Positions 1,657 through 55,800 of a stretch of 64,000 nucleotides of DNA are shown one piece after another. A program made the position numbers and the translations under genes. Origin of the DNA: Barthelona sp. PCE (Eukaryota); assembly GCA_040285745.1 (NCBI GenBank), contig JAUFOR010000004.1, positions 620,001-684,000 of the forward strand, in the 5' to 3' direction. Each line of letters opens with the position of its first letter. The stretch's first letter is position 1. The notes beneath the pieces were generated by a model. It was not told where the DNA came from and ran no database searches. It saw only the letters and a program-made list of their open reading frames with translations.

Positions 1657-4374
1657 ATGGTGATCAAGGGGCAGAAAATCATCTGTGGACTGAGTTTCGA
1701 TACGGATTCAGACTCAGATGACGATTTCATTCCAGTAGTGAAGAAGGTTGAAACGAAACAAACGAAACCAGTTATTGTACGATCACCACCGGCTAGGATG
1801 GTGCCCATTCCAAGTGAACCTGTTACTGTTTCTTTAAAAAAGAAACCACAAGCACTTAAACGAAAAGCAAGTGCTGTTTCTCATCAAAAAAAGTCGGATC
1901 CAGTTGTGGTATCAATTCCAAAGCCGGCAATTAGTGAGCCCAAACAGGAAGAGATTACATGTTCAGGGATTTTTTCAAGTGATGGAACTAAGCGTCAAAA
2001 GACAACTGTGTTGCCTGAACAGTCGGGCAGTCTGTTCGACGGCGTGAGGATGCACGTTAGTAAGTCGTTCCACAACAACAACTACACATACAAACATATT
2101 AGAACATTCCTCAAGGGTTGTGGAGCAAAGATGCTAAAGAAAGCAACCAGGGCGTGTGATATCATATTATACAGCCCCAGTGACGAATTTGCAGACCGTT
2201 ATAAGAAGTTGACCGATACCCATTTCGATAATGTCGTTGATTTCATTCAATATACTCATGAGCGTGTTGATATCATGAATGCAGCGACCACAAAGCCAAC
2301 GTACGGTGTCCGGGTGAAGGCTTTTGGATCAACCTCTGTCAATCAGAAGAAGCTTAAAAAAGTGTTCTTTAAGCTTGGCATGCGTATGGTTGATGATGTT
2401 AAGGATGCTGATATCATCATGCTTGGTCAGATTGGGTCAGAAGACCGGATTTTGTTGGAGCGTATAAAAGGAAAGAAGGGGGTCAAAGATGATGATTTTA
2501 CTTCATTTATTGTTGGTACAGAGGAGAACATAGCTTCCAACATTGAGACGCTGCCGCCAATAGAGGCTGTGCTCAAGGGTGTGAGACGTGTTAAGCGAAA
2601 GGTAGAGAAGGTAGTTGCTGAAAAAACCAAAGTCAGTCTAGCAGGAGCCGGTACAGCTATTGCTAATGAGTCTGCCAGTGATCTATGGGTAGACAAGTAC
2701 CGCCCGATGCGAGCTAAGGATCTCATAGGAAATCCAACGTCAATTAGGAATTTCAAGCTCTGGTCTCTTTACTATGAGAAGGTGAGGCGGTGTATTAAGA
2801 AGGGACGTGATTTTAAAACGTCAAAATACTACAGGGAGTATCTCCAGGACGCAGGAAGACTGCGTATTGAGAGTTTTGCAGCAGATCAGTTCTTGTCCAA
2901 TTTTGAGTTCGATTGCTGTCTTCTCAGTGGCGCGCCGGGTATAGGAAAGACAAGCAGCGTGTACATGGCTGCGAAGGAGCTGGGTTTCGATATTGTAGAA
3001 TTCAACGCAAGTGATGTGCGATCGAAGAAGCAGATACAAGCCCTCTTTAGTGGCGGTCTCAACGCTGGTTCAGTCACGCACATTTTGGAGGAAGGAAGCA
3101 AAACCAAAAAGTCAGAGGATACTGTAAGGTCAAGGAAGCGGCTTATTCTTATGGATGAAGTTGACGGAATGTCGACTGGAGATCGTGGTGGTCTGCAGGA
3201 GGTTTTGAGGCAAGCAAAGAACAGTACGGTGCCTATTGCTCTCATTGCTAATGACATGTCGTCCTCCAAGATGCGCACTGCAGCACCAAAGGTGTATCAC
3301 CTGAAGTTCAGAAAGCCTGGCGTCGGCATTGTCGCTAAAAGACTGAAGGCGATATGTGCGCGTGAAAATGTTGTAATTGAGGACCAGCAGCTCATTGATT
3401 TGACTGAAAGTGCAAACTGCGATATTAGGCAATGTGTCAACACATTACACATGTTTGCTAAGGAACAGAAGAGACTCAGGAAGAAGCACGGAGCTAACAC
3501 TGATACCAGCCATTTGTTGGAGCCTGCCAAGGATCTTGATCTGGGTCCATTCGACGTCATCCCCATGCTGTTCAGCCCCATGCTTGGAGGGAAAATATCG
3601 CGATTCATGCAGTACTTTTGGGTTGACTATTCTCTTATGCCACACTTTGTTTTTGAGTGCTATAAGAATGCAGCTACAGATACATTGGACGATATGGAGG
3701 CGCTGGATGCGCTTGTGGACGCATCAAGCTCCATAGTTGATGGTGATCTTATTCATTCAACAATAGCAATGCAGAATTGGTCGCTGCTACCTGCCAGAGG
3801 TCTATGTGGTGCGGTGTATCCTGCACGTATTGTCGAAGGCGGTGTTCACGGTGCAGGATTCCCATCAGTATTGGGAAAGATATCATCGACGAACAAAAGG
3901 AAGAGGTTAATCAATGAGATTAATATGTCTGTTACTCAGACAGCGCATTCGACTCCACGTGACGTGAATTTGAATTATATGTCTCTTATGAGAAGAAAAT
4001 TCATCACAGGAATTTCAAATGCAATCACAGAAGAAGCTAAGGAAGTTGCCATTAGTGAATTAATTGAATTTTTGAATGCGTACCGTCTCGTTAAACATGA
4101 TTTTGAGGGATTAAATCTGCTCCAAGAGTTTGAAATGGGCAAATTTATTCCTAGTTATGAAGCTGTTGATACTCAGTTGAAACGGCGTATTACAACTCAA
4201 CTTTCAAGTCACTCAAGCGGTTCGAACTCGTTTAAGGATGGAGATACGTTGATTCTGAAGGGTAAATCACAGCTTGGAAAACGGCCGCCAAAGGAAAAGA
4301 CCAGAAAGACAACAAAGAAAAAAACAACAACAAGGAAGAAGAAGAGCAGAGGATTGGATAGCTTTTTTAAGTAA
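1657..4374 (+). CDS. RFC1: Replication factor C large subunit
   Basis: LWVDKYRP, Walker A GAPGIGKT, EFNASDVRS, Walker B MDEVDGM, DRGG, CDIRQ, RFC1 C-terminal helical domain. First ATG at 1657 (the ORF track uses TTG at 1633). Confidence 0.95.
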   Translation: MVIKGQKIICGLSFDTDSDSDDDFIPVVKKVETKQTKPVIVRSPPARMVPIPSEPVTVSLKKKPQALKRKASAVSHQKKSDPVVVSIPKPAISEPKQEEITCSGIFSSDGTKRQKTTVLPEQSGSLFDGVRMHVSKSFHNNNYTYKHIRTFLKGCGAKMLKKATRACDIILYSPSDEFADRYKKLTDTHFDNVVDFIQYTHERVDIMNAATTKPTYGVRVKAFGSTSVNQKKLKKVFFKLGMRMVDDVKDADIIMLGQIGSEDRILLERIKGKKGVKDDDFTSFIVGTEENIASNIETLPPIEAVLKGVRRVKRKVEKVVAEKTKVSLAGAGTAIANESASDLWVDKYRPMRAKDLIGNPTSIRNFKLWSLYYEKVRRCIKKGRDFKTSKYYREYLQDAGRLRIESFAADQFLSNFEFDCCLLSGAPGIGKTSSVYMAAKELGFDIVEFNASDVRSKKQIQALFSGGLNAGSVTHILEEGSKTKKSEDTVRSRKRLILMDEVDGMSTGDRGGLQEVLRQAKNSTVPIALIANDMSSSKMRTAAPKVYHLKFRKPGVGIVAKRLKAICARENVVIEDQQLIDLTESANCDIRQCVNTLHMFAKEQKRLRKKHGANTDTSHLLEPAKDLDLGPFDVIPMLFSPMLGGKISRFMQYFWVDYSLMPHFVFECYKNAATDTLDDMEALDALVDASSSIVDGDLIHSTIAMQNWSLLPARGLCGAVYPARIVEGGVHGAGFPSVLGKISSTNKRKRLINEINMSVTQTAHSTPRDVNLNYMSLMRRKFITGISNAITEEAKEVAISELIEFLNAYRLVKHDFEGLNLLQEFEMGKFIPSYEAVDTQLKRRITTQLSSHSSGSNSFKDGDTLILKGKSQLGKRPPKEKTRKTTKKKTTTRKKKSRGLDSFFK

Positions 4375-4382
4375 ATAATTGA

Positions 4383-4840
4383 GGCACGCTTGTGAATAAC
4401 ACGCTATTTCGTAGGAGTAAATCTACTGAGGAGTAGACACGCGGTCTTCCCTCTTGTACTCTGTGAGTACTTACATCATTTCTTTCTCCCCTTTTATTTT
4501 AAAGGTGACATACAGGCGCTAGCCTTCAGACTTTATACTTGAGGTAGTAAACAGCGGAGGGGGACGAAGCGAACCGTCATGTGTAGTAGGTGTCCGTAGG
4601 ACCCGATACGGTTTTTCTTACCTTTTTCAAAAAAAAAGGGTTTTAGGCCACTTCCCGGACGAAACACCCTCTACACGTGAAGGCGAGCCTTCCCACGTGA
4701 GCGTTCCCCGACGTCAATAAACCTACTTCAGTATAAAAAAAGGGCTCTAGAACAATTCTCAGTGCAAGCACAGCACTCGAGGGAGCTCGCAACTCCCGTA
4801 CAAGTGTCTAACTCCGAAGTAAATTCACAACCTCCTACGA
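4383..4840. mobile_element. Family-1 non-autonomous foldback element, interrupted by a family-2 insertion
   Basis: 4383-4503 plus 4736-4840 is the reverse complement of 22595-22820 with one substitution. Flanks differ between the copies. Confidence 0.85.
4504..4735. mobile_element. Family-2 foldback element (232 bp) nested in the family-1 element
   Basis: Absent from the 22595-22820 copy. 4504-4657 matches the reverse complement of 38540-38694. Inverted arms start TATACT at 4534 and end AGTATA at 4735. Confidence 0.85.
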
Positions 4841-5391
4841 ATCGGTGTAAGCATCTAGTTGTTTATTGCAGGAATCTAGTATTTGCAGGGTAACAAAAGC
4901 AATGTAATAAACCCGAACTTTATAGTTGAGAACAATGGTTTGTGCACAGTAAAATCAGCATTCTAGAAATTATGTCCCATAATACAAACTTTACCCACAA
5001 CAACAACAAAAAAATTTTCACCCCGTATTTCAAGGTCTTAGCCTGGTACTTCTGAGTTAAATGTTCTGTTTGGCTGTTTCTGTCTTCGAAAAAGATGGTA
5101 TCTTTTGAAGATTTAACTCTTTGAGAAATATTCAGTTTTTAAGCTGTTACCTTAATGCACGTTGTTTTCTCACACTTTAAATACAATTTTCGGTACATCT
5201 AAGCACTAATATGTTATTGTAGTATGAATAATATGAAAAACAGGTAAACAAATGGTGTAGGGTTTAATTTTTACAAAATACTTCTGAAAATGCATGTTTC
5301 TTGGCTTTAAAGTTCCAATGAGCCAATGTAAAATCTATAACCCTGTGCTTTCTGTTGTGAATCTTTTTCTTACCCTTTTCATCGAATAATT

Positions 5392-5986
5392 ATGCCTCGC
5401 AAAATAGTTCCCAGCATAAAATCATTAAAGGATCTTCAGTTGAAGTCTTTTGCAGCTCTTCTCTTATCATATCGTGTAAGTGGAACTAAGTCATTTATGA
5501 CAGCACACATGATTGATGAGCTCAGGTTATTCTTCCACATACCGTATGTTAGTCCCACGCGAACCACTTAATTTTTGCTTTTAACTTACATTTAGCTCCA
5601 CCACATACAGTAATCTTTTAGAGCAACTTGAGAATGAGCCTCTGTTAAAGGAACTTGAGAGGTTTTCTCAGAGCCATCTTAAGGATATTGAGAAGCAACC
5701 TCTACCTGTTCGTAATGATATTCACGAATTATTGCATGGTTTTATTCAGTTCAGTGATAAAGGCACCTATCCTCGCCGTTCCCTCCCTTCATCTTCATCA
5801 ACCATTTGCTTTTCGACAAATTCAGATATTCAGAGCTTGGTCAGTTATGCAAACACCATTTTTGGTCAAACTGTGGAAAAGAGTGATGTACGCAGAGCCC
5901 GTACTCTTATTGACAAGGAGTTAGAGAAGGTAGATGAAGAATTAAAGTTTACTCAACAGGGATATACCTTGCCTTCTTATGAGTAG
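5392..5986 (+). CDS. ENT (EMSY N-terminal) domain protein; exons 5392-5543 and 5596-5986
   Basis: Removing intron 5544-5595 joins MPRKIV..LQLKSFAALLLSYRVSG..IDELRLFFHIP to the frame of ORF 5732..5986. The helical pattern resembles the ENT domain. Confidence 0.7.
5544..5595 (+). other. Spliceosomal intron, 52 nt
   Basis: GTATGT...CTTACATTTAG; removal restores the reading frame. Confidence 0.85.
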
Positions 5987-6022
5987 AAGAAATGTAACAG
6001 TTAGAAAAAGAGACATTAGACA

Positions 6023-7385: not shown

Positions 7386-7997
7386 TTACATGGGAACAAC
7401 CTTACGGCCAGCAAGAACGTCTTCCATTCTCTTCTGGACAACGGTCCAGTCGACGTGGTTCAGATAAGCCTGAATGTAAGCACCCTTCTCGGAAGGAGCA
7501 TAGGCACCTGAAATGAGATAAGCGTGCTCCCACATATCAACGAAGAAAATAGCCTCACCATGGGGAATGGCATCCTCGTGGCTGCTGACCCAAACAGTGG
7601 AAAGCTTGTGGGTAACAGGGCACATGACAACGACGATCCATCCAACACCACGTGTTGTACCAGCTGTGGTTACGTCAGCAATGAGCTTGTCGAAGGAGGT
7701 CTCAGCCTGCTCCTCGAGCATACGCTTGAAATCGTCTGTGGGGGCAACACCATCAACCTTGAGCTGCTCAAAGTAGTAGAGATGGTTAAAGTAGCCACGG
7801 CTCTCGAAACCGAGACGGCGGCGACGATCAGCAAGATGCTGACCGGAGATTGTGGGGATTTCGGTGAGAAGACCATTGAGGTTCTTGCAGTAACCCTTCA
7901 AAAGACCGATATGGGCAGTGAGGAGTTCATTAGGCAAGCCAGCGTATTCATTCTCAAGAACATTAGCTATTAATTCGGGTTTCACGGTGTAGGTCAT
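7386..7997 (-). CDS. sod: Fe/Mn superoxide dismutase, bacterial (ChrC-like) type
   Basis: Metal ligands H (TAHIG), H (FNHLYY) and D/H in DMWEHAY; GVGW; RRLGFE motif. Confidence 0.9.
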   Translation of the reverse strand: MTYTVKPELIANVLENEYAGLPNELLTAHIGLLKGYCKNLNGLLTEIPTISGQHLADRRRRLGFESRGYFNHLYYFEQLKVDGVAPTDDFKRMLEEQAETSFDKLIADVTTAGTTRGVGWIVVVMCPVTHKLSTVWVSSHEDAIPHGEAIFFVDMWEHAYLISGAYAPSEKGAYIQAYLNHVDWTVVQKRMEDVLAGRKVVPM

Positions 7998-9113: not shown

Positions 9114-10805
9114 ATGGATATTTTAAACATTGAATCGAGCTGCATTAACTACTGTAACCGATGTGAACAGGCTAAAAAAGGACCTGGATGCGTTGGTATC
9201 AAGGAAGAAAATCCTGAAACAATTTTTGGTGTTTGTGGTAAGACAAACATTGTATCCACAAGAATTGACATGATCAACTACTTCCTGAATAAGTATGCTG
9301 AAGCAATGCAAGGGAACACCTCGAAAGTTTCCGATGCCAGTATTAGAGCCATTCTCGTTGCTGGTTTCAGCACAATCACAAACACCAACTTTGATGCCGA
9401 CCGACTGCGTTTGTATGCAATCTCCGTTATGGATGCATGTAACGCAGATTTTGGTACTTCCCATGTTTACCCTGAAGACGAAGCCAAGTGCATCCAGGAC
9501 AATGGATACATTCACCTTCTGCGCGAGCGCGGTGAGGTTCTCGGTGGATTAATCATCTACGTTGAGCAGGGTGCTTACGGGTCCATGGCTTATGCCGAAC
9601 ACGCTGTTATGGAGAGCGGAACTACAGAACATATCCGCGAGCATGTTATTACACTCATGGACTGCTTCTACCAGTCTAAACAGGCAACTGACGTGCCTAC
9701 CATGCTGGGTGTCATGGCTGCTGCCGGAGCTGCCAACCTTACTATCACACAACAGCTTGACGATGCCAACTTCAAGTCCCACGGCCAGCAGACTTTCTCT
9801 CACGCAGAGCTCATTCCTGAGGCAGGTAAGGCCTGCATCATTGTGAGTGGTCACAGTCTCAGTGATATTAAATCTCTTCTTGAGTACATCAAGGAACACA
9901 ATTACGAGATCAACGTCGCCACCCACGGTGAGATGCGTCGCTCCCACGGTCAGGAAGAACTCCGCGCCCTCGGTCTCAAGCACCACTTTGGTTCCAGTTG
10001 GTCCAAGCAGCGTTCTGAGTTCAAGAATGTTCCCGCCGCTATCCTCTTTACAACAAACTGTATCGTCAAGCCTCTGCCTTCATACGCCGACCGCGTTTTC
10101 ACATGTAACATGGTTGCCATGCCTGGTTGTGAGCACATCGAGAACAGAAACTGGGAATCCATCTGTCAGAAGGCTCTTGAGCTCGGTGGTTTCACCGCTG
10201 AGGATGTTGCCCGTTACGAGGAGAAGTACGCCAGCGCCGGTCAGAACAATAAGCTCCTATTCGGAGGTGGTTACCGTACCGTCCTTGAGCATGCAGGAAA
10301 GATTGTTGATCTCATTAAGCGTGGTGTCATCAAGCGTGCCATCTTCATCGGTGGTTGTGAATCTTCTACTAGAACCACATACTACAAGGAACTCGGTGAA
10401 AACATTCCCAAGGACTGGCTTGTACTCACTGCTGGTTGTGGTTCCTTCTTGGTCAACAACAATCCCGCTTTATACGGTGATTTCGAAGGTATTCCCCGTG
10501 TTGTTGATGTTGGTCAGTGTAACGATGTTTTTGGCGCTGTTCAGATTGCTTTAGCTCTTCAAGGTGCTCTAGGTGGCATCCCCTTTGACAGCTTCCTTTC
10601 ATTCTCGGTTAGCTGGTTTGAGGGTAAGGCCCTTGCCTGGTCTCTCACTCTGCTTGCTCATCTGGGTATCCCTCTCATCACTCTCGGTCCTTCCCTCCCC
10701 CGCTTTTTGGCCCCCGCCGTCATTGATTTCCTCGTTGAGAACCTCAAGGTCAGTGTTATTGGTGATCCTAAGACCGATGTTGAGACCATTATCTCCCGTA
10801 TGTAG
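9114..10805 (+). CDS. hcp: Hybrid-cluster (prismane) protein
   Basis: N-terminal CxxCEQ..C..GVCGK; hybrid-cluster ligand motifs SGHSL, THGEM, TTNC, GGC, AGCG, GQCND, SWFEGKA. Confidence 0.95.
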   Translation: MDILNIESSCINYCNRCEQAKKGPGCVGIKEENPETIFGVCGKTNIVSTRIDMINYFLNKYAEAMQGNTSKVSDASIRAILVAGFSTITNTNFDADRLRLYAISVMDACNADFGTSHVYPEDEAKCIQDNGYIHLLRERGEVLGGLIIYVEQGAYGSMAYAEHAVMESGTTEHIREHVITLMDCFYQSKQATDVPTMLGVMAAAGAANLTITQQLDDANFKSHGQQTFSHAELIPEAGKACIIVSGHSLSDIKSLLEYIKEHNYEINVATHGEMRRSHGQEELRALGLKHHFGSSWSKQRSEFKNVPAAILFTTNCIVKPLPSYADRVFTCNMVAMPGCEHIENRNWESICQKALELGGFTAEDVARYEEKYASAGQNNKLLFGGGYRTVLEHAGKIVDLIKRGVIKRAIFIGGCESSTRTTYYKELGENIPKDWLVLTAGCGSFLVNNNPALYGDFEGIPRVVDVGQCNDVFGAVQIALALQGALGGIPFDSFLSFSVSWFEGKALAWSLTLLAHLGIPLITLGPSLPRFLAPAVIDFLVENLKVSVIGDPKTDVETIISRM

Positions 10806-11836: not shown

Positions 11837-12163
11837 GAAATGAAAAAGGTTGAAAATAAGTTATCAAGAAACAAAGAAACTTAATTCAAAAGAAAAGTTT
11901 AAGGATGTCCTGACATATTCACATGTCATAAATCGCAAGTTAAAGACCTTTGGTCACTCAATATTTAAAATATTGAGATGAGCCTTACTGATATCCAAAT
12001 TAGAAACCTTTTTATTATGAATTTTTGTACTTTAAACATGCCAAGGGGGATGGGACGAGTCCACCTACCTATTTTCATGCTGGTATGTTTTGGAAAGACA
12101 TTTTTTGCTATATTGTTGTTTAAGTCTCTTATACAATTCACATTTCACAGATTTAAGTGCAAA

Positions 12164-12976
12164 ATGCTGATACGGAACCAAAGAGCCATATTTTTTCAGA
12201 AAACGACCAGAGAATGTGTTGATCGCAAAAATTATTTAGTATCTAAAATGGTCGACTCTCAGGAGTTATATATAGAAATGATGTGCAACGAAGCCGAAGC
12301 ATATGATGTGTTGGAAGAATTGACTGATGCCAAGGGTGCTGAGAAAATTGGATACTTGCTTGTGTCAAGTGATAAAACAACTATTGTGGAGTTTTATTGC
12401 ACAGAAGAATGTGACACTGTTGCTATTTTACGAAGCTTCATCGAACAGCACCCTGAAATAACTACAATACTCACAATGTCAACAACACAACAATTGATGA
12501 ATTCTTGCCTCGATATGGGATTAAAATACGAGGTGGTTGGAGCAAATTTCCGCGATTGGCAGGATACTCAGGAGTCTTTATCGTTACAAAGTCGAAAAGC
12601 ATTGGAATCTGACTATAATTATCTCAAAGAAAATAACGAAGAAGTATTCGATTACGATGAACAAATTAATGAGTGGATCAGCAACGGGTGGGTATATATT
12701 GCAGAGAATGAAGGTCAAAGCGTAGGTTTCGGCTTATGTACACCCACCTTGAAGCAAGAATACAATGAGACTGCAGATATAGGTATACTTGTTGCTTCTG
12801 AACACCGTCATCAGGGGTATGGATCACAGATAGCGCGCTTAATGGCAACAGAAGCCCAACGACAAGGTCTCCGACCAACTGCTGGGTGTGCTATTGAGAA
12901 TATTGCTAGTCGGCGTACGTTACAAAGAGCTGGATTTAAACGATCATTCAGAACCCTCACCTTCACCCGCGAATAA
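12164..12976 (+). CDS. GNAT-family acetyltransferase, bacterial-like (start uncertain: 11978, 12164 or 12248)
   Basis: ADIGILVASEHRHQGYGS acetyl-CoA motif A; AGCAIENIASRRTLQRAGF. Confidence 0.8.
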   Translation: MLIRNQRAIFFQKTTRECVDRKNYLVSKMVDSQELYIEMMCNEAEAYDVLEELTDAKGAEKIGYLLVSSDKTTIVEFYCTEECDTVAILRSFIEQHPEITTILTMSTTQQLMNSCLDMGLKYEVVGANFRDWQDTQESLSLQSRKALESDYNYLKENNEEVFDYDEQINEWISNGWVYIAENEGQSVGFGLCTPTLKQEYNETADIGILVASEHRHQGYGSQIARLMATEAQRQGLRPTAGCAIENIASRRTLQRAGFKRSFRTLTFTRE

Positions 12977-15532
12977 ATTACTAAACGAAGAATGTCTCAT
13001 ATAGTAATCAGACAGTTTGAATAGGGTTTCAATTGGCGTAGCATGGAATCCATCCACTGTCTTTGCTATAGAGAGGTACTCCTGTCCATACTTTGGTGCG
13101 AAGCGCTTGTATAAATCAATAATATGGTTTCTATATACATCATCACCGGTTGTTGTGTTGAACGCGAGTGCCATTGCATATACATCAGCGAATTGTTTAT
13201 GGTGCTCAAGTGCACGTTCTATGTATGTTCGTGCACGGTTCCAATCAGAAAGATTGCAGAAAACCCAAACAGCACTGATTAGAACGTGATAAGTGTCTTT
13301 GTACGGTCCACGCAGTAGTGCAAGAATTCTAGACTTCTGCTTGATGACAGGGAGCATCAGTGGATCGTACGAAATAATTCTATCAACGAGGCCTCGCGAG
13401 GAATTATATTTTGGATCAGGCGCCCAATCGCTGTTGGAAAAAACACGCAGGTACTGATCAACCAAATTCATCCGATGTTTTTCCGGTAAAGAAAGTTCAT
13501 AGTCGAGGCGAAGGAAGTATAGAATTGGCCACTTGGGATGTTTAATGATAAGTCGTTCAAAAATGATTCTCTTTTCCAACTTCAATTGTAAATCATCGTT
13601 ATAATTGACAAGAAAGCGTAATATGGCCTCCGAAAAGTACACACTATTGCACTCATTCATCATATTGTCAATATTATTGATGTGAAAATATCCATTTTCC
13701 ATTTGTCGTTGCACCAATCTTAATTTAGGATCATCCCAGTGAACCTGGCAGAACTGTTCAAACGCACTGGAGCGAACATAGCGGTCATATTCAGCCGGTT
13801 TGCGGTTTTTTAGGAAGAACAGTCTGAAAATCGCAACCTTTGGGCTAACTTTTGCAGGATTCTTGGGAGGCCATTTCATATATCTGGATCTGTTCATGAC
13901 ATCTTCCGCTAGCTCAAACAGACCATGTTGGCAATATTTTTTAAATGTGAATAAACTCAAAGGTGTATTGATATATTTATCCAAAATTGTTAATGGAGTG
14001 GGTATATCATTGTACCCAATAAGGAATTTGACAACTTCTGCATCGATGAGAGGCAATTTATACTCAAGCATGAGGCTAACAGCACCATTGAGAAAATGAG
14101 GAAGAAAATATTGAGCATACTGTATTACTATCTTTAACAGCGTTATCTTTTGCTTTTTTGGCAGTGAATCAGCATGGAGAATCAACAAACACAAACTAAG
14201 TACGGCAGAATCACCTTCAATAGGCTTTGCAGAAACACAAGAATTGGTGATGCTTTTTTTAATCTCTGAGCAGTCAGTTATCACCAAACAAGATGCCAGT
14301 TTGGTCAGCACAGTTGGGTTACCTGTCATAGTGTTGAACAAAGGTATGAGCACGGTGCTAACTTGTTCATCATTAACAGAAAGTTTGAAATTTTTAAGCG
14401 ACTCTAAGTACGGGGTCTCATCAATTTTATACTTGTCACAGATCTGTAGCAATCCACTTGTGATGTATAACACAGCTTGCCACGTCTGATCCGGCACCAT
14501 GAGTCCTCGTTGCATCGTAGCGAGCGCACCATCAACGGTAGACTGTTGGCGGGCAAGGAAGACCCAAAATTCACTGACTTTTGGATTAAAGTTGATAGCC
14601 TGTGATAAAATTGAAGACAGCTCGTTTTTGGGTGTCATTCCTATCAACTGGCGCCATAAACTCACACCATGCGGGCAATTATGACTTCTGACACTGTCTG
14701 TTAACATCGCATACTTGCTGATGGGATTGACACAGTTATCAACTGCAACGTTCCATAATTTCTCACTTGAAGGAAAGGTCTGCAATGCATCCTTAATTGC
14801 AGCACCATTCTCCGCCTTTCTAAGACTGTTTATCAGTACAACATACAGATCCTCATCCTTTTTGTGTCGCAATCCCAATAAACACTCTCGAATGGCTAGT
14901 TTTGAATTTTTTTCTTGGAAATACAGTTGTGCAAGTCCTAATCGTGCCTCAACATTCCCCTTATCTAGCTTGACCATCTCCTTCAATGACTGCTTCAATT
15001 GCCTGTTATCTACAAGAATATTGGTGTCGAGTGCTTTCAGGTATTCACTTTTTTTTGCTTGTGTTGCTTTTGCACCTGTTGTAGTATCCTCGAAGAGCAG
15101 ATCCATGTCTTCGAATTCTGTTTTCATCTCTTTAACCCTTGAAACTAAATGAGTATCAGCAGAAATTTGGAATTCACTTCGCTTCTTGTACCGATCATAA
15201 ATCCTGGATATGTCAGGCTTCTCTGGGACTTCCATCCAATCATCAAAGCTTAGATTGATTGTCTTCTGTGTCTTTGGAAGCAATTTGGAATGATTCGAAA
15301 CAGTGCTAGCTTTGCGTTTCCTTGCCTCAATCTGCTTCTCAAGTCGGTCCCACGATGTTGTGCTACCATGAAATACTATGTCATCATTCTTTTGATCTTT
15401 TGGGTTGACTCTACGCTTATTTTTTGAGCGATCAGCCAGATCAAGTGCAGACTGCAAATTAGAAAGCCCTCTGAGTGAACCAGCCTTGTATTTTGGCGGG
15501 GGTGGTCCCCAAACTTCATATGGATCAAACAT
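12944..15532 (-). CDS. PRP6: Divergent pre-mRNA splicing factor Prp6 (HAT/TPR repeats)
   Basis: N-terminal PPPKYKAGSLRG, HAT-like repeats (PSSEKLW, PHGVSLW, PKVSEFW), C-terminal PKYGQEYLSIAK. Confidence 0.75.
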   Translation of the reverse strand: MFDPYEVWGPPPPKYKAGSLRGLSNLQSALDLADRSKNKRRVNPKDQKNDDIVFHGSTTSWDRLEKQIEARKRKASTVSNHSKLLPKTQKTINLSFDDWMEVPEKPDISRIYDRYKKRSEFQISADTHLVSRVKEMKTEFEDMDLLFEDTTTGAKATQAKKSEYLKALDTNILVDNRQLKQSLKEMVKLDKGNVEARLGLAQLYFQEKNSKLAIRECLLGLRHKKDEDLYVVLINSLRKAENGAAIKDALQTFPSSEKLWNVAVDNCVNPISKYAMLTDSVRSHNCPHGVSLWRQLIGMTPKNELSSILSQAINFNPKVSEFWVFLARQQSTVDGALATMQRGLMVPDQTWQAVLYITSGLLQICDKYKIDETPYLESLKNFKLSVNDEQVSTVLIPLFNTMTGNPTVLTKLASCLVITDCSEIKKSITNSCVSAKPIEGDSAVLSLCLLILHADSLPKKQKITLLKIVIQYAQYFLPHFLNGAVSLMLEYKLPLIDAEVVKFLIGYNDIPTPLTILDKYINTPLSLFTFKKYCQHGLFELAEDVMNRSRYMKWPPKNPAKVSPKVAIFRLFFLKNRKPAEYDRYVRSSAFEQFCQVHWDDPKLRLVQRQMENGYFHINNIDNMMNECNSVYFSEAILRFLVNYNDDLQLKLEKRIIFERLIIKHPKWPILYFLRLDYELSLPEKHRMNLVDQYLRVFSNSDWAPDPKYNSSRGLVDRIISYDPLMLPVIKQKSRILALLRGPYKDTYHVLISAVWVFCNLSDWNRARTYIERALEHHKQFADVYAMALAFNTTTGDDVYRNHIIDLYKRFAPKYGQEYLSIAKTVDGFHATPIETLFKLSDYYMRHSSFSNLFAGEGEGSE

Positions 15533-15603
15533 CGAATCCTGTTGAAAGGGATAAAATTTGCTTAACGTATTTGCATCTTTATCATTGATATTTTAATTTA
15601 AGC

Positions 15604-16173: not shown

Positions 16174-16449
16174 GAAACATATGTCTTCTGGATTTTTCAT
16201 TAAATAATACTCTAAACAAAGCCTCTAGTGAAATTTAGCCCCAGTAAACAAGTGATTTATGTATGTATATTGTGAAATAAAAGAGAAAAGATTATCCAAA
16301 ATCGAAACCTTGCAATCATACTGTTTAAGGGTGCCAATCCTTGCCTATTGTATATTTGGCCAGTTATAGGAGGATTGATACGTGACATAAAAGGATAGAT
16401 GTTGAAGAATTATAATCTCCCCATTTCAACGTTATTTTTCACGTAACAA

Positions 16450-22594: not shown

Positions 22595-22820
22595 TCGTAG
22601 GAGGTTGTAAATTTACTTCGGAGTTAGACACTTGTACGGGAGTTGCGAGCTCCCTCGAGTGCTGTGCTTGCACTGAGAATTGTTCTAGAGCCCTTTTTTT
22701 TTAAAATAAAAGGGGAGAAAGAAATGATGTAAGTACTCACAGAGTACAAGAGGGAAGACCGCGTGTCTACTCCTCAGTAGATTTACTCCTACGAAATAGC
22801 GTGTTATTCACAAGCGTGCC
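22595..22820. mobile_element. Family-1 foldback element, uninterrupted copy (226 bp)
   Basis: Reverse complement of 4383-4503 plus 4736-4840; lies between the convergent eIF4E and USP stops. Confidence 0.85.
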
Positions 22821-22858
22821 ATATCACATTTACACATTTTATCGTTTATCACCAATAT

Positions 22859-37132: not shown

Positions 37133-37195
37133 GTGCTTTTGTTGTAAATTTACTGTTTTTGTGTTTTTTTCTCATTTTTTACATATTTTTAAGGG

Positions 37196-38539: not shown

Positions 38540-38694
38540 CGGGAAGTGGCCTAAAACCTTTTTCTTTTTGAAAAAGGTAAGAAAAACCGTATCGGGTCCT
38601 ACGGACACCTACTACACATGACGGTTCGCTTCGTCCCCCTCCGCTGTTTACTACCTCAAGTATAAAGTCTGAAGGCTAGCGCCTGTATGTCACC
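38540..38694. mobile_element. Family-2 foldback element, copy truncated at one end (155 bp)
   Basis: Reverse complement of 4504-4657, differing only in the central T tract. Confidence 0.85.
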
Positions 38695-48969: not shown

Positions 48970-49820
48970 TCGATAAAGGAGGTGTAGATAAGAATTACAA
49001 AATCGAGTTTAAGCTTATACAAAATATGATACTTGAATATGATATACACTATATTTACATCCCCGAAGTGTGTGTACAAATAAAGTAAACACATCAAGAA
49101 CAGAGGATCACTTTTTCGATACTCTATTCATATTATTATGTCAATTTTGTTGAAATCGTTGTTAAAATGCGATATACATCCCTAATCTTAACCAGTATTC
49201 TCTAATTAATGTTTTTGTAGGAAGTTATGAAAAATCATGACTTTGAAGTTGTACTGTGGAACATAAATCAATTTATAGTGTAAAACTTTGGTGTACTTTA
49301 TACATTTTGTGACCTGTGAATAGATTTCAAAACATACTGTTACAATCCATTTTTTCATCATATACACATTTTTTTTAATTTTTGCAACTGTTTTCTTTAT
49401 TTTTAGATGGTATTATACAATGCGCATGTATATATAGTGCTTTAAAAGGAAGTATCCATATTTTTTCAAACATGTTAATTTTAAGGGCTATATTTAGTTG
49501 CAGTGATGAGCGTACATGTAGGGCTGTTGTTTTATATGTTTGGAGTTGCAAAAGAGAATTTTTTTTTGAGAGGAACATAATTCTATTTCATATTCGTGTT
49601 TTTGATAGTGTAAACGATGTAAAATCGAATGAATCATCAGTTAAGCAGCAGCCTTTTTCAAGATTTGATAGGCATTAGTAAATTTGTTTTTTCACCCAAA
49701 TTCAAAGGTTGGGACATTGTAAACATTACCAAAGAGCCTCATGTGCACCAAACAGCCCATTCCACCAACGTAGATATTTCAGCTAAAATTGGAAATCGAA
49801 TTCTCTTTTCTTTCTTTTAT

Positions 49821-52800
49821 ATGATGCTAAAGAATTTAATTCTCATTTCGCTTCTTCTTTTTGCAACAGTTACTGCTGTTGGAAACATTGGAAATGAAAT
49901 TGATATTCCTGACGTAGATATTCCTGACGTAGACTATGAAGATGAACATCATATCGTTCTTCCTGTTGGTCCTGGTATCGTCATGCCAAATATTTCCGAC
50001 TTTGATCACATCAAGATGCCTGATGCAGATATGCTAAAGAATATTACTGATTCTTTGTTCTCTCTCTTGATTCCCGGTCAGTTTAACTTTATTCAGGTCG
50101 CTGTAACCATTGAACCTGCTTTTGTTGAAGAAGTCAGTGCTGCCCTTGGTGAGTATGGCTCTATGGCCTACTATCTTGGAAAGCAACGCTTCCTTATTGA
50201 TGTCCCACAAATGCTTATGCCTTTGCTTGATACTCTCCCCATTGTTGATTTTGAGCCTTTAGATCCCAATGAGAAGATTTCTAATCTTTTAGCTAGCAAC
50301 GGTGAGTCTGACATCACAAAGCTTTCTGTTTTGGTTTCCCGTACCGCTGGTGCTAAGAAGCTTGCCGAATATTACGGTACTCTTATCAGCAACCCTAGCG
50401 TCAAGTTTACTGCCATTTCTCAGATGCAAATGATCGTCACCTTCCCTAAGGACATTTCTGAATCTGTCATTTCTTTCCTTTCTAAGCAGGCTGGTACTGT
50501 TTTCATTCAGCCAGCTGTGGAGATTGAGAAGAAAAACATGAAATCTTTTGAAGCAATTGTTGGTACTCAGACTCCTAATATGTTTGGTCTTGAGGGCTAC
50601 GACGGTTCAACTGAGATCATTGGTGTTTCTGACAATGGTCTTGATACTGATCACGAGTTCTTTGCTGATGCTTCCCGCCCCGTTCCTTTCGATACCATTG
50701 ATTCTAATCACAGAAAGATCATTGCTTACTTCACTGAGTTCGGTTCAAACACTTCCATGGCTCACGGTACTCACGTTTGTGGTACTGTTGCTGGTATTAG
50801 CGATAATTCCACTGATGAAATCAACAAGTTCCACGGTATGGCTCCTGGTGCAAAGATTGCCTTTGCCTCAGTTGCTGCACCCGATGGTAAGTTCACCGAT
50901 TTCTCAGTGTATGACGTCTCCCAGAGACTCTATGATGCTGGTGCCCGTATTCACTCCATGTCCTGGGGTGGACACTTCGGTGGTGTCGTTGGTATTGGCG
51001 CTTATTCTAACAATGATTATGAAGCTGATCTTTTCGCTTACGAACACCCTGAAATGGTTATGGTTGCCGCTGCTGGTAACGATGGTCACAATCAAAAATC
51101 CACAACTGGTTCACCCGCCAATGCCATTAACGTTTTGGCTGTTGGTGCTACTGTTGGTCCCCAAGAATCATGGGATGCCTTCTTTGTTGATTCTCCTTGT
51201 CAATTTGACCGTGAGAAGACTATTGAAGCTTCCTGTGATGCAATCTCTTTCTTAACTGCTGAGCTTAATCAGAACCCCATCTGTCATCAGCTTCCTACTA
51301 CTCTCATGGGTATTTACGGTACTCACGAGTCCACTTCCTGTAAGGAAGATCTCACCGCTTACTGTGGTTATCTAACTAACTATGCTGGTTCTGGTGAGGA
51401 TCTTTACAACGATCTCTGTTCTGCCAATGATTACTATTGCTCTCAATGCCCTTCATATGGTTACAAACACCAAGGTGATGAGTACAATGCTGCAGTCTTC
51501 AGCTCAACTGGTCCCACTCTCGATGGCCGTCTTAAGCCCGAGATTAGTGCTCACGGTATGCTTCGTTCTGCTCGTTGTGGTGCTGCATGCGGTGACATTA
51601 GCGAAGACAAACTTGTCTATATGCCTGGTACTTCCATGGCTACACCTGCCGTTTCTGGTACTATTGCTCTTGTTCGTCAATACATGAAAGAGAAGATGAG
51701 CATTGCCAACCCCAAGGCACGTGATGTCAAGGCAATTCTCATGTCACTCACTCGTCCTATCTGGACTAATCAATTCGATAAAGGCATGGATACCGGTTAT
51801 GGTGAGGTCCAAGTTGCTGGTCTCAACCGCACTATGCCTCTCTTGAAGGAGATTGTTCTCGCTAACGAGGGTGATTATCATCCCGTCTGTGTCCGTGCCA
51901 AGTTGGTCAACAGCTCTATGGGTGGCAGTCAAGAAGCAAACTTTGCAATTTCTATTGTCTACACCAACCCTCCTCGCGTCCCTCTTGATCCTATGTACGA
52001 CGGTCACATTGTTGACATGTCTTACTTTGGAGACAACCTCGCCTGGGAGACATCTCACACCAAGTATGATAAGGATGTTCATCTTTCACCTATCAAGCAC
52101 TTCCAAGAAAATACATATCTGGATGAGTACAACAGTGAGCAGGTTTACTGTTTCACTGTCAACGCTACTCGTCTTATCTCATCTAACCTTGCTGTCTCTG
52201 TCGCTGCCGCCATTACCGTCGAGCCTCAGTACGATGCTATCTTTGAACTCGAGTGGGTTTCACCCGAGCAGCTGAAGTGTCCCAACAACTGTTCCAACCA
52301 TGGTTATTGTAACCAGGGTGTTTGCATGTGCGATGATGAGCACACTGCCAACGATTGTTCCATAGTGAAGGATGCACAGTATTACTGTATGGAAAGCTGT
52401 CTCAACGGTGAGTGTATTGAAACAACCAAGGTCGCTAACGTTTCTGAGTGGATTTGTAAGTGTTACGAACCTTACCAGTACAAGTATGAGTACTGGGGTG
52501 ACTTCTGTCAATTTGATCGATATGGTGTTTATCCCAACGGTGAAAACAACTACGGTCTCAGAGAGTTTGTTATCAATGGTACTACCCTCAATGACACTCA
52601 AGGTATGCAGTTTGCTGTCGATGGTAAGCCCATGATCAGCCGTGGTATTGTTATGCCATTGTCTGAGTACTGGAACGTATCTGCTAAGATTCAAGAACTC
52701 GCTGGCGCCATTGCTAGTGAAGTTCCTCACCTTCTTCAGTCCCTTCTCCAGGGTCAAAACACTTCCATCCTTGCTATTCAGAGCTATGTTGATCGCATCC

Positions 52801-55800
52801 TTGCTGAAGCTAATATTACTAAGTACTACATCTGGGAGATGCCTAAGGGCTCTGCTATGTTCCATCTGACTCCTGAGGACTTTGCTATTGACCGCAAGTG
52901 GTTCGTTCTTCCTTTCGATACCATTGATGTCACTGCTCGTGATTACTATCCTGATCAGTGTGAATGTATCGATACTGGTTTCTGTAACGATATGCCAGGT
53001 TATCCTGACCGTATTAACATGTGTAAGGATTGCTTACAAACTGAGCACGTCTACTTTGCTGAAGAACTTTGCGCTGTTGAAATGTGTCCTTTCAACTGTA
53101 GTGGCAACGGTGTCTGTAACATGACTTCAATGACATGTAACTGTGATACCGGTTTCCACGGTCTCCGTTGTGAGTCTATGAATCCCCCTATCCCTTGTGA
53201 ATTTGGCACAATATTTAACGAAACATGTGTTTGTGATTCGACTCACACTGGCCCCGCTTGTATTGTTCCTATTGTTCCTATTAATGTTGAAGGTATTAAT
53301 GATTCTGAAGGAATCGCTTCATATACTCTTGAGCAATTAGGTAAACCCAAGGTCTATGAGGTTTTCGAAGTCACTATCAACAACAGCATGGCCAATAATT
53401 CTATTATTGAGGTATCCATCGAAGGTACCAACGTTAAGTATGATGGTGAATATGACTTCGCCACATCTACCCTTCCTTACGCTGTAATGACTGAAGCCCT
53501 TCCTGATATGAAATTCTTGACTGATGCCAAGCCTTTCATCGATCTTCCTTCATCTCAGTATGAGATTATGAAGAAGTTCTATCCCCTTCTTGAGAGAATC
53601 ATGGCTGGTGATCAATCAGCTTATGAAGACATCATGAAGCTTGTTAACCCCAAGCAACTTGAGGATCTCCAAATGACCATTGATAAGATTGTCAAGGGCT
53701 TCAACATGACTGGTCAGGAACCTCTCTCACTTGGTATTTCTCATGTTTATCCCATCATGACACCTCTCTCTTCTGAGAAGCGTTCTATGATCCTTACCCG
53801 CCCTCTCATGGCTGGTGAGAAGATCTTTGTTACCGTCTTCAACGCTGATTGGTTGCGTGGTGCTTCTGGCAATGTTGTTGTTACCGTCAAGGATATGATG
53901 AACACTTGTCAACGTGCTAACATGAGTGATATCATCTATGCTTCTTGTAACGGCACTCATTGGGTCACTGATAAGATTCAGGCTCCTACAATGATGATGT
54001 CCAACAACAGTAACATTATTCAGGATCTTGGTTGGTATCCCTTCGATTCAAGTCTTGTTATCCGCGCCTTTGATTTGAATACCCCTGTTTGGTTTAGTTA
54101 CCAATCACGTATGAAGGTCACTGAGGAGCAACTTAACTTGACTGAGTTTGAACGCTCAGAGATGACTCCATATGCTCTCACTCAAATTGATATGGCCAAG
54201 ACTATCTCACAGCTTCCCGTTCAAGGTTTGGTTATCTACACATGTAATGCTCAAAACATTACTCGTATTGTTAACCCCTTCGGTGAAACTCTCATGCCTT
54301 GTCACGGTGGTGAGGTCAACTTGATCTTTACTCCTTTTTCATCAATGATCCCTGCCGAGTTCAACATCTCCACCGAGGCTTATGTTGATACTTGTGACTA
54401 CGATATGTGTTCCAACAACTTTGGTATGTGTGTTCGTGGCAAGTGCGAGTGTGGTGGTGCTATGGTTCTTATTGAAGATAACGTTTGTTCATTCGATCCA
54501 GCTCTCGTCCACGATCTTTCTATTGGTGATGAAGCCAAAGCATTTAACACAAGCATGGGTGGTATTACTTTCAAGATTGCCCGTCCTGAATTTGAAATGT
54601 TCACTATGGGTCTTGTCACATTCACTAACATGACCGGATATCCTCTTGAATCCATTGGTAACTCTCTTGTTTCTGTCTGGATTGATGATGCCAACAAGAC
54701 AAGCATTGATGCATATCCCGCCCCCATCATGCCTCAGGAGAGTATCACATATTTGAGCATCTCCCCTGGTGTTGACATGAGAGGCAACTGGACATATATT
54801 TACATTACGCTCACTAGCAAGTTTGCTGTTCCCACTTTCCCCATGATTGGTGAGATGCCTCTTCCTCAGTGGCCTCAAGAGATCTACGCTCGCACCTACG
54901 CTAACCCCGCTTGTCCCATGTTCTGTACTGGACATGGTGTCTGTAACGGAACAGGTGTTTGTGAGTGTTTCTTCGGCTGGGATGGACCTGCTTGTAATGA
55001 GCCAAAGTATCACACTTCTACTTACGATGAGGACTCTTTGTCATTCATCTCTGAAGGTGAAATGGAGATCAACAGCGGTTTCCCCGCTTACACCCGCGTC
55101 AACGTTGGTGATATGTCTCTGAGCTCCAACCAAGATGTTGTTATCATTCCCACATCCGATATGCCTGGTGTTATCGTCATTCCTTTCGCTTCCACTGAAG
55201 CTCCTTCTCCTACTGGCTTCCCTACTGCTGCTAATCTCTTTGTTCCCACTGGTATGGGTCCTTTGGTTGTTGATTCTGAACGTATCTTGTTCAAGCCCAA
55301 CACCACTGAGGCTTACACAGGTGATCTATACATTGGATTCGTTGCTATTACTATGGGTGGACTTCCTATGCCTATGAACGAGGATTACGTTACTCCTTCT
55401 CTTCCTGGCACAGGTGAGGTTGATCCCTCCGTCTTCTTACATATGCTTAAGGAGCTTCGTGGCGAGAACGGTACTATCATCCGTGGTAACTTCTCTGTTT
55501 CCACTCGTGTTGCTCCTAAGCGTGACTGCGGTCGTGGTTCTTGGAGCTACGTTGAGGATAAGTGTTCCTGTCAGTTCGGTTACACTGGTGAGCAGTGTAA
55601 CAACATTGACGCTATCCTGGTTGATCTGAACTCCGGTATGGAGGTTAACGTTAACAAGTCTAAGCAGTACATTATGTTCGTTTTCGATACTAGTGACTAC
55701 GATGGTGGTATCATTGTCAACCTTGACGTTTCCACCAAGTACTCTGCTGTCCTCATTAACGCTGATGGTCCTCCTTCATTTGACAACTTCATGCGTGTTC

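What the first reader, a model, noticed from the sequence alone, without database searches (positions are those of the whole stretch)
4383..4840. Two unrelated ~230-bp elements share an asymmetric foldback architecture: candidate new ssDNA-mobilised element system
Seen: family 1 (226 bp) and family 2 (232 bp) share no obvious sequence but have the same plan. Each starts 5'-GG and has an unpaired tail (26 nt, 4383-4408; 30 nt, 4504-4533). A ~60-100-nt arm follows, then a T-run/A-run apex, then an imperfect inverted arm ending flush at the other terminus. Family 1 arms: TCGTAGGAG at 4409 and CTCCTACGA ending 4840. Family 2 arms: TATACTTGAGGTAG at 4534 and CTACTTCAGTATA ending 4735. The arms are strongly diverged from each other while dispersed copies are almost identical, so the mismatches are maintained. 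No TSD is visible at any site. Known: asymmetric inverted repeats without TSD characterise Helitron2/Helentron elements, and inverted doublets of GTAG plus palindrome characterise bacterial REPINs moved by RAYT HUH enzymes. Family-1 arms begin cGTAGGAG followed by GTAAAT(C/T)TAC. Inference: non-autonomous elements recognised as folded single strands by an HUH-type transposase encoded elsewhere.
Basis: partly seen in the sequence, partly recalled or inferred. Interest (0 to 1): 0.88.

Follow-up and report, generated by a model that had tools for sequence, protein, structure and literature searches.

The report
Related hairpin-shaped mobile DNA repeats
Two short, non-coding, related repeat families in a very compact protist genome look like small mobile DNA elements whose ends are built like those of rolling-circle (Helitron2/Helentron-type) transposons, but the enzyme that would move them could not be searched for.

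Summary
The repeats are real and lie at the stated coordinates. Family 1 (226 nt) has an intact copy at 22595-22820(-). A second copy at 4383-4840(+) is split by a full family 2 element (232 nt, 4504-4735). A partial family 2 copy (nt 1-154) lies at 38540-38694(-).

The intact family 1 copy serves as an empty site. It shows that family 2 inserted into the T/A run at the hairpin apex, adding 0-1 nt. Family 1 folds far better than chance. Family 2 does so only weakly.

The two families are not unrelated: 142 of 250 aligned columns match (z 5.6), in one orientation only.

Read as reverse complement, both have a flush 5' arm. The partner arm sits 26 or 30 nt from the 3' end, and that tail holds a small stem-loop. 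There is no TSD of 2 bp or more. One insertion lies inside a T-run. This is the plan of Helitron2/Helentron non-autonomous elements (HINE/DINE-1), though the arms here are much longer.

No whole genome, RNA data or Rep-helicase search was available, so the mechanism is inferred (about 0.35).

New lead: both family 1 copies start 7-8 nt after a same-strand WGTAAAT, the likely poly(A) signal of the upstream gene.

The parts
4383..4503 (+). Family 1, copy A, left part. It holds the 26-nt 5' tail (4383-4408, with a small imperfect stem-loop), the left arm from TCGTAGGAG (4409) and the T-run plus first 3 A of the apex.
   Evidence: 100% identical over 121 nt to 22700-22820(-). Sequence read. Fold.
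4504..4735 (+). Family 2, full copy (232 nt), nested in the apex A-run of family 1 copy A in the same orientation. It holds a 30-nt tail (4504-4533, with a 4-bp stem-loop), a left arm from TATACTTGAGGTAG (4534), an apex of T-run, A9 and GGG, and a right arm ending CTACTTCAGTATA (4735).
   Evidence: The intact family 1 copy gives the empty site. Folds. Partial second copy.
4736..4840 (+). Family 1, copy A, right part. It holds the remaining A-run, GGGCTCTAG and the right arm, ending flush with CTCCTACGA.
   Evidence: One substitution against 22595-22699(-).
22595..22820 (-). Family 1, intact copy B (226 nt), lying between two convergent genes (eIF4E-like + strand, UCH-like - strand).
   Evidence: DNA fold z -4.3. 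RNA fold z -6.1 and -5.1 on the two strands. Gene families.
38540..38694 (-). Family 2, partial copy. It covers nt 1-154 (tail, left arm, apex and 20 nt beyond) and then continues into unrelated sequence.
   Evidence: 98.7% over 155 columns. Sequence read.
4370..4376 (+). AGTAAAT overlapping the stop codon of the RFC1-like gene. Family 1 copy A starts after a 6-nt spacer (4377-4382), 7 nt past the hexamer AGTAAA.
   Evidence: Motif enrichment after stop codons.
22828..22834 (-). TGTAAAT starting 24 nt after the stop codon of the UCH-like gene. Family 1 copy B starts after a 7-nt spacer, 8 nt past the hexamer TGTAAA.

Best explanation
Families 1 and 2 are two diverged subfamilies of one kind of short (about 230 nt) non-autonomous DNA transposon.

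Shown:
- They have precise common ends in different flanks.
- Family 2 has inserted into family 1.
- No duplication of 2 bp or more is made at the family 1 sites.
- The element is an imperfect foldback, and one end carries a 26-30 nt extension beyond the hairpin.

Inferred: they are moved in trans by a Rep-helicase (HUH Y2) transposase of the Helitron2/Helentron type encoded elsewhere in the genome. In that reading the reverse-complement strand is the element's sense. The enzyme nicks at the flush 5' end (TC.. or TA..) and peels off a single strand. It stops at the 3' tail, where the set-back inverted repeat and small stem-loop mark the end. The strand is then inserted into T-rich DNA between two T, with no duplication. 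The T/A run at the hairpin apex of resident copies would itself be a landing site, which explains the nesting.
For: Mobility: the empty site (T-run + A9 + GGG at 22691-22714) against the filled site (A3 | 232 nt | A7). Copies are 99-100% alike in unrelated flanks.

The plan read as reverse complement:
- The 5' arm is flush.
- The partner arm is 26 nt (family 1) or 30 nt (family 2) from the 3' end.
- The tail has a stem-loop: family 1 nt 6-22, family 2 nt 11-22.
- Family 1 carries a perfect 10-nt palindrome, GTAAATTTAC, next to its 5' arm.

These features match the descriptions read as passages. HINEs have 12-15 bp subTIRs 2-4 nt from the 5' end and 38-60 bp from the 3' end, a 3' palindrome, often palindromic subTIRs, T-rich or TT targets, no target modification and a variable number of boundary T (PMC4067079). 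Helitron2 has an asymmetric TIR with the 3' repeat about 20-40 bp in (PMC5148889). HLE2 elements have short TIRs, a stem-loop in the right end and T-T insertion (PMC11417382).

Target: in this orientation family 2 sits inside a T9 run (T7 | element | T3, one extra T). Two of 3 complete insertions are flanked T|T.

Terminal pairing is kept in both families although the terminal words differ (TCGT/ACGA against TATACT.G/C.AGTATA).

Helitron-related helicase-endonuclease genes are reported in Carpediemonas, a metamonad from a neighbouring lineage (PMC8516963, passage).

No Rfam family and no tRNA match the elements.
Against: - No Rep-helicase gene could be sought, because no genome is held. None lies in the window.
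- Only 2 copies per family were available.
- One of 3 complete insertions (family 1 copy B) is flanked A|A in the proposed orientation. The partial family 2 copy has C at its 3' side.
- The complementary arms are 80-95 nt long and cover nearly the whole element, unlike the 12-15 bp subTIRs of described HINEs.
- The family 2 hairpin is statistically weak.
- The tail stem-loops are 4-6 bp and could arise by chance.
- The 3' ends (..GTGCC, ..GTCACC) resemble none of the termini quoted in the passages read.
- The fixed position of both family 1 copies, 7-8 nt after WGTAAAT, is not predicted by a T-T target rule.
Confidence: 0.35

Rival explanations
1. A DNA element of a kind not yet described in eukaryotes. 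It would be recognised as a folded single strand by a non-Helitron enzyme, for example a Y1 HUH like the IS200/IS605 TnpA, or a tyrosine recombinase. It would insert in a fixed orientation downstream of a short sequence word.
For: There are no flush TIRs at both ends and no TSD of 2 bp or more. A small subterminal stem-loop lies near the GG end. Both family 1 copies lie in the same orientation 7-8 nt after a same-strand WGTAAAT. The chance per intergenic strand-position is 0.004 for 7-8 nt and 0.034 for 0-15 nt. Family 2 landed in the loop of the family 1 hairpin, which would be single-stranded if extruded.
Against: The sample is two copies and the motif link was noticed post hoc. The family 2 sites lack the motif. 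There is a 7-8 nt gap, whereas IS200/IS605 elements abut their target word (recalled, not checked here). No such enzyme is known to move eukaryotic elements (recalled). No enzyme could be sought.
Confidence: 0.18
2. An ordinary cut-and-paste foldback or MITE moved by a DDE transposase, with a very short or no visible target duplication.
For: It is short, non-coding, AT-rich at the centre and hairpin-forming. The same base flanks both sides at 3 of 3 complete insertions, which could be a 1-bp duplication. A TAAA duplication is possible for family 2 if the A-run was shorter before insertion.
Against: The two termini are not inverted repeats of each other. GGCACGC.. and GGTGACA.. have no partner at the other end. 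Family 1 has no TSD of 2 bp or more. I recall no DDE superfamily with a 1-bp TSD.
Confidence: 0.12
3. Retroposed copies of a structured small RNA (SINE-like), copied through RNA by a reverse transcriptase encoded elsewhere.
For: The units begin with GG. The RNA folds are stable (family 1 z -6.1, family 2 z -2.9 on the + strand). An internal A-run is present. Partial copies exist (one 196-nt contig in run X1 carries an exact 80 nt of the family 2 right arm joined to other sequence).
Against: There is no 3' A-tail and no TSD. There is no tRNA and no Rfam match, even at E up to 10. The + strand has T4-T5 runs and WGTAAA words, the likely 3'-end signal, well before the element's end, so a full-length transcript looks unlikely (inference). 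G:U pairs show no strand bias.
Confidence: 0.1
4. Not selfish elements now but host modules: two-way 3'-end or terminator cassettes between convergent genes, or convergent small-RNA units, spread and kept because they stop read-through in a very compact genome.
For: Both family 1 copies lie between convergent genes, directly after the upstream gene's WGTAAAT. Intact family 1 carries 3 WGTAAA words against about 0.4 expected. A T-run/A-run centre reads as a T-run on either strand.
Against: One copy is disrupted by family 2 without obvious loss. The family 2 sites are not at gene ends. In a 77%-ORF window, surviving insertions are expected in 3' spacers anyway. This reading does not explain how the copies spread.
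Confidence: 0.08

Closest known systems
HINE / DINE-1 (non-autonomous Helentrons) and Helitron2 (HLE2) elements
   Same: - Non-coding, with no target duplication.
- The 5' inverted repeat is at or next to the terminus.
- The partner repeat is set back tens of nt from the 3' end.
- A short stem-loop lies in the 3' tail.
- A palindromic word sits in or next to the subTIR (family 1).
- The centre is low-complexity.
- Insertion is into T-runs, with a variable boundary T count.
(Passages compared.)
   Different: - The arms pair over 80-95 nt, so the whole element is a foldback.
- The set-back is 26-30 nt, against 38-60 nt in mite HINEs.
- One of 3 insertions has A|A flanks in this orientation.
- The terminal words are unlike those quoted in the passages.
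- No Rep-helicase partner is known.
- The host is a barthelonid-like metamonad, from which I found no description of such elements.
Canonical Helitron (Helitron1)
   Same: No TSD and no flush TIRs. Family 1 read as reverse complement starts with TC.
   Different: There is no 3' CTRR, no hairpin 10-12 nt before such an end, and insertion is not between A and T (against passages).
Foldback elements and MITEs (DDE cut-and-paste)
   Same: Short, non-coding, hairpin-forming and present in several near-identical copies.
   Different: The termini are not mutual inverted repeats, and there is no TSD of 2 bp or more.
Bacterial REPIN / RAYT and IS200/IS605
   Same: Hairpin-based ends, no TIR or TSD, and a possible link to a nearby sequence word (family 1 and WGTAAAT).
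   Different: The host is a eukaryote and the element is about 230 nt with long-range pairing. The GTAG resemblance is a 4-mer. The word is 7-8 nt away rather than abutting. No Y1 enzyme could be sought.

Membership tests
Helitron2/Helentron-derived non-autonomous element (HINE/DINE-1, HLE2) | An autonomous partner encoding Rep (HUH) plus helicase shares the same termini | not testable with these tools
   No whole genome is held. None lies in the window.
Helitron2/Helentron-derived non-autonomous element (HINE/DINE-1, HLE2) | Asymmetric terminal inverted repeat: the 5' repeat at the terminus, the 3' repeat set back about 20-60 nt | tested here: met
   The set-back is 26 nt (family 1) and 30 nt (family 2), and the other arm is flush. 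Criteria come from passages.
Helitron2/Helentron-derived non-autonomous element (HINE/DINE-1, HLE2) | A short palindrome or stem-loop in the 3' tail | tested here: met
   Family 1 has 5 pairs with one mismatch (nt 6-22). Family 2 has a 4-bp stem with a 4-nt loop (nt 11-22). Both appear in every fold. They are too short to be significant alone.
Helitron2/Helentron-derived non-autonomous element (HINE/DINE-1, HLE2) | Insertion between T and T in T-rich DNA, with no target duplication | tested here: inconclusive
   Two of 3 complete insertions are T|T, one of them inside a T9 run. One of 3 is A|A. The partial copy has C at its 3' side.
Canonical Helitron (Helitron1) | 5' TC, 3' CTRR with a hairpin about 11 nt upstream, insertion between A and T | tested here: not met
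   The ends are TC..GTGCC and TA..GTCACC, and the flanks are not A|T.
DDE MITE / foldback element | Terminal inverted repeats flush at both ends, plus a TSD of fixed length of 2 bp or more | tested here: not met
   The 26-30 nt tail has no partner at the other end. Family 1 flanks share only 1 base.
SINE / retroposed small RNA | tRNA-, 7SL- or 5S-like head or another known RNA, a 3' A- or simple-repeat tail, and a TSD | tested here: not met
   ARAGORN found 0 genes. Rfam gave 0 hits at gathering score, and 0 in the elements at E up to 10. There is no terminal A-tail.
Solo LTR | TG..CA termini and a 4-6 bp TSD | tested here: not met
   The termini are GG..GA and GG..TA, and there is no such TSD.
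REPIN / RAYT | An inverted pair of REP units with 5' GTAG, in a genome encoding a RAYT (Y1 HUH) | tested here: inconclusive
   GTAG occurs in the arms, but it is a 4-mer. The host is a eukaryote. A RAYT could not be sought.

The most novel reading that the evidence does not exclude
These are not Helitron relatives but a new class of eukaryotic hairpin-ended element, recognised as a folded single strand. Family 1 would insert in a fixed orientation 7-8 nt downstream of the host's poly(A)-signal word WGTAAAT, at the place where the upstream mRNA is expected to end. Family 2 would insert into the exposed T/A loop of resident hairpins. This would link transposition to single-stranded DNA at transcription-termination sites, in a genome that looks among the most compact known for a eukaryote.
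Probability: 0.12. Interest if true: 0.8.

Novelty: new variant of a known kind. Interest (0 to 1): 0.4.

Why it matters
The window comes from an extremely gene-dense, apparently intron-poor metamonad. About 77% of it lies in ORFs of 200 aa or more. Its nearest named relative is a barthelonid at only 46% identity in topoisomerase I. I found no description of mobile-element families for that clade.

Near-identical copies and a nested insertion show that something still transposes in such a streamlined genome. If the Helitron2/Helentron reading holds, it extends rolling-circle elements to this lineage. It would also give a compact whole-element-foldback version of HINEs.

If the link between family 1 and the poly(A) signal holds genome-wide, it would be an unusual target choice. 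It would allow an element to persist in a genome with almost no spare DNA, and it would be directly testable.

Tried and rejected
- Public runs: 3 rows from one sample and study. The best holds 0.10 of the sampled words, and no RNA holder is listed.
- Laying X1-X3 on 4200-5000: only one informative piece, a 196-nt contig with an exact 80 nt (4638-4717). The other pieces are low-complexity matches at 4303-4345 with 4-6 differences. The rest of the stretch, including the unique flanks, had no cover. This says nothing on absence, copy number or habitat.
- Exact 30-nt scans: metagenome contigs 0 and 0 hits, viral contigs 0 and 0, genome contigs 0.
- Earlier findings of this scan: nothing by sequence, place or words.
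- Rfam: 0 at gathering score over the whole window. At E up to 10 there are two chance-level hits, both outside the elements. tRNA: 0.
- Further diverged copies in the window: none by blastn with word size 7 and E up to 10, nor by seeds of 12-14.
- Other foldbacks of this plan in the window: none among 75 short inverted pairs, of which the 25 longest are shown.
- G:U strand-bias test for an RNA-level structure: no bias. There are 2 G:U among 50 long-range pairs in family 1 and 4 among 46 in family 2.
- Covariation between the families on a MAFFT alignment: the consensus fold did not recover the long hairpin, so the count is uninformative with 2 sequences.
- Solo LTR, canonical Helitron, SINE and DDE-MITE readings were rejected on their termini (see the membership tests).
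- Transposase in the window: the Pfam scans of 26 ORFs found none. Three ORFs have no family. The small gap ORFs were not scanned.
- Supplements of the papers were not seen. They may list repeat families of the clade's genomes.

Full report
**What the window is.** The 64-kb window is eukaryotic and very gene-dense. Twenty-six ORFs of 200 aa or more, read with the standard code, cover 77% of it. Stop codons are mostly TAA or TAG.

The genes are housekeeping genes: RFC1, topoisomerase I, PIG-M, eIF4E, a UCH protease, a TAF6-like protein, 6PGD and a flippase. There is also a radial-spoke protein, a hybrid-cluster (prismane) protein and an Fe-SOD domain, which suggests an anaerobic flagellate.

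The topoisomerase I lies on a 1.42-Mb contig. Its best non-self match reaches only 46% identity. That match is a transcriptome protein whose accession names a Barthelona strain. I therefore place the window in or near the barthelonid/skoliomonad clade of metamonads.

The genome paper on that clade was read only as passages holding 'transpos', 'repetitive', 'repeat' and 'intron' (PMC11316075). It gives repeat percentages of 4.5-55% but describes no element families. Its supplements were not seen.

**The observation.** Family 1 is 226 nt. An intact copy lies at 22595-22820 on the minus strand. The copy at 4383-4840 is split into 121 and 105 nt by a 232-nt family 2 element at 4504-4735. The two family 1 copies differ by one substitution.

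Family 2 has a second, partial copy at 38540-38694(-). It matches nt 1-154 at 98.7% and then runs into unrelated sequence. No further copies were found in the window, even diverged ones. No other foldback of this plan was found either.

The flanks of the copies are unrelated, so these are dispersed repeats with precise ends and not a segmental duplication.

The intact family 1 copy acts as an empty site for the family 2 insertion. T-run + A9 + GGG becomes A3 | element | A7 + GGG. The insertion therefore added the element and at most one base. This is direct evidence that family 2 is mobile.

**Is the foldback real?** For family 1 it is.
- As DNA, the minimum free energy is -34.0 kcal/mol against -19.95 +/- 3.25 for shuffles. 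That is z -4.3, with 0 of 200 shuffles folding as well.
- As RNA, z is -6.1 on the + strand and -5.1 on the - strand.
- The left arm (79 nt) aligned to the reverse complement of the right arm (96 nt) gives 60 matches and z 6.5.

For family 2 the evidence is weak.
- The DNA fold gives z -1.46, and 17 of 200 shuffles fold as well.
- The RNA fold gives z -2.9 on the + strand and -0.56 on the - strand.
- The arm alignment gives z 1.65.

With stringent local scoring, only the apex palindrome stands out in either family. In all folds the first 26 nt (family 1) or 30 nt (family 2) lie outside the long hairpin and form a small stem-loop of their own.

**The families are related.** A global alignment gives 142 matches in 250 columns. 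The score is 10 against -26.4 +/- 6.5 for 300 dinucleotide shuffles (z 5.6). Against the reverse complement the score is -15.

The shared pieces are:
- the initial GG;
- AGG(T)AGTAAA at the start of the left arm;
- the apex, with T-run, A9 and GGG.T.TAG (z 3.7);
- the end of the right arm (z 2.7).

The tails alone are not alike (z -1.3). The common plan is therefore inherited and not invented twice.

Terminal pairing is kept in both families although the terminal words differ. That argues that pairing of the ends matters for function.

**Comparison with known kinds.** Read as reverse complement, each element starts flush with one arm (TCGTAGGAG.. or TATACTGAAGTAG..). The partner arm lies 26 or 30 nt before the 3' end, and that tail carries a small stem-loop. 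Family 1 also has a perfect palindrome, GTAAATTTAC, beside the 5' arm.

The passages I read describe this layout for Helitron2/Helentron elements and their non-autonomous HINE/DINE-1 derivatives.
- PMC4067079: subTIRs of 12-15 bp lie near the 5' end and 38-60 bp from the 3' end. SubTIRs are often palindromic, and there is a 3' stem-loop. Targets are T-rich or TT, with no target modification and variable numbers of boundary T.
- PMC5148889: an asymmetric TIR, with the 3' repeat 20-40 bp in.
- PMC11417382: short TIRs, a stem-loop in the right end, and T-T insertion.

In this orientation family 2 sits inside a T9 run (T7 | element | T3, one T more than the empty site). Family 1 copy A is flanked T|T.

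Several points count against the match.
- Family 1 copy B is flanked A|A.
- The partial family 2 copy has C on its 3' side.
- The arms here pair over 80-95 nt.
- The 3' terminal words resemble none quoted in those papers.

Canonical Helitron ends (TC..CTRR, A|T), LTR ends, flush TIRs with a TSD, and SINE features are all absent (see the membership tests). Rfam and ARAGORN find nothing.

Helitron-related helicase-endonuclease genes are reported from Carpediemonas, a metamonad (PMC8516963, one passage). Such enzymes are therefore not foreign to this part of the tree.

**A new lead.** The word (A/T)GTAAA occurs within 80 nt after the stop codon in 18 of 26 ORFs. TGTAAA accounts for 10 and AGTAAA for 8. 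The background per 83-nt window is 4% and 3% respectively. The word resembles the Giardia poly(A) signal AGTRAAY (PMC1805757, passage).

Both family 1 copies lie in the sense orientation of the upstream gene and start 7-8 nt after such a hexamer:
- AGTAAAT at 4370-4376, with the element starting at 4383;
- TGTAAAT at 22834-22828 on the minus strand, with the element starting at 22820.

A random intergenic strand-position satisfies this with probability 0.004 for a 7-8 nt spacing and 0.034 for 0-15 nt.

Family 1 itself carries three such words against about 0.4 expected. This is partly because its palindrome contains the word. Either the element chooses sites near this word, or only insertions just past a poly(A) site survive in so dense a genome, or the element supplies 3'-end signals.

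**Outside the window.** One coded public run (X1) holds a 196-nt contig. Eighty of its nt are identical to 4638-4717, which is the family 2 right arm starting at the GGG after the A-run. The other 116 nt are different sequence.

Together with the partial copy in the window, which breaks 20 nt past the apex, this shows that half-elements broken at or near the apex exist. It does not show copy number or host.

**Verdict.** They are related to each other. Their end architecture is best matched by a known kind, the rolling-circle Helitron2/Helentron-derived non-autonomous elements, of which they would be an unusual whole-element-hairpin variant.

Membership is not established. The defining enzyme, genome-wide ends and targets, and circular junctions could not be tested. 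I give the Helitron2/Helentron mechanism about 0.35. An undescribed single-strand or recombinase route gets about 0.18. The DDE, RNA-mediated and host-module readings get about 0.1 each.

Noticed in passing
window-wide; for example 4370-4376, 22828-22834(-), 37141-37154: (A/T)GTAAA lies within 80 nt after the stop codon of 18 of 26 ORFs. The background is 3-4% per 83-nt window for each hexamer. It is a likely poly(A)/3'-end signal, like Giardia's AGTRAAY.
   Followed up: partly
upstream of ATGs, for example 1-37, 11837-11860(-), 15533-15560(-), 16420-16449: TTTCA(A/AC) occurs within 60 nt upstream of the start codon in 13 of 26 ORFs, against a 12% background. It is a candidate initiator or promoter word.
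   Followed up: no
49629-59318 (+): A single 3229-aa ORF combines a subtilase domain, teneurin-type EGF repeats, a REJ domain and a GPS motif. This is an unusual giant surface-protein architecture for a compact protist genome.
   Followed up: no
12944-12976: Convergent ORFs 11978-12976(+) and 12944-15532(-) overlap by 33 nt at their 3' ends. Several other spacers are only 57-160 nt.
   Followed up: no
4841-6022: About 1.2 kb downstream of the nested elements holds no ORF of 60 aa or more except one of 69 aa (5715-5924), and has no Rfam hit. It is an unusually long empty spacer for this window.
   Followed up: no
run X1, contig laid on 4638-4717: A 196-nt contig from a coded public run carries 80 nt identical to the family 2 right arm. 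The match starts at the GGG after the A-run and is joined to 116 nt of other sequence.
   Followed up: partly
9114-10805 (+), 7386-7997 (-): A hybrid-cluster (prismane) protein and an Fe/Mn-SOD C-terminal domain protein lie close together. They are oxygen- and nitrogen-stress enzymes typical of anaerobic protists.
   Followed up: no
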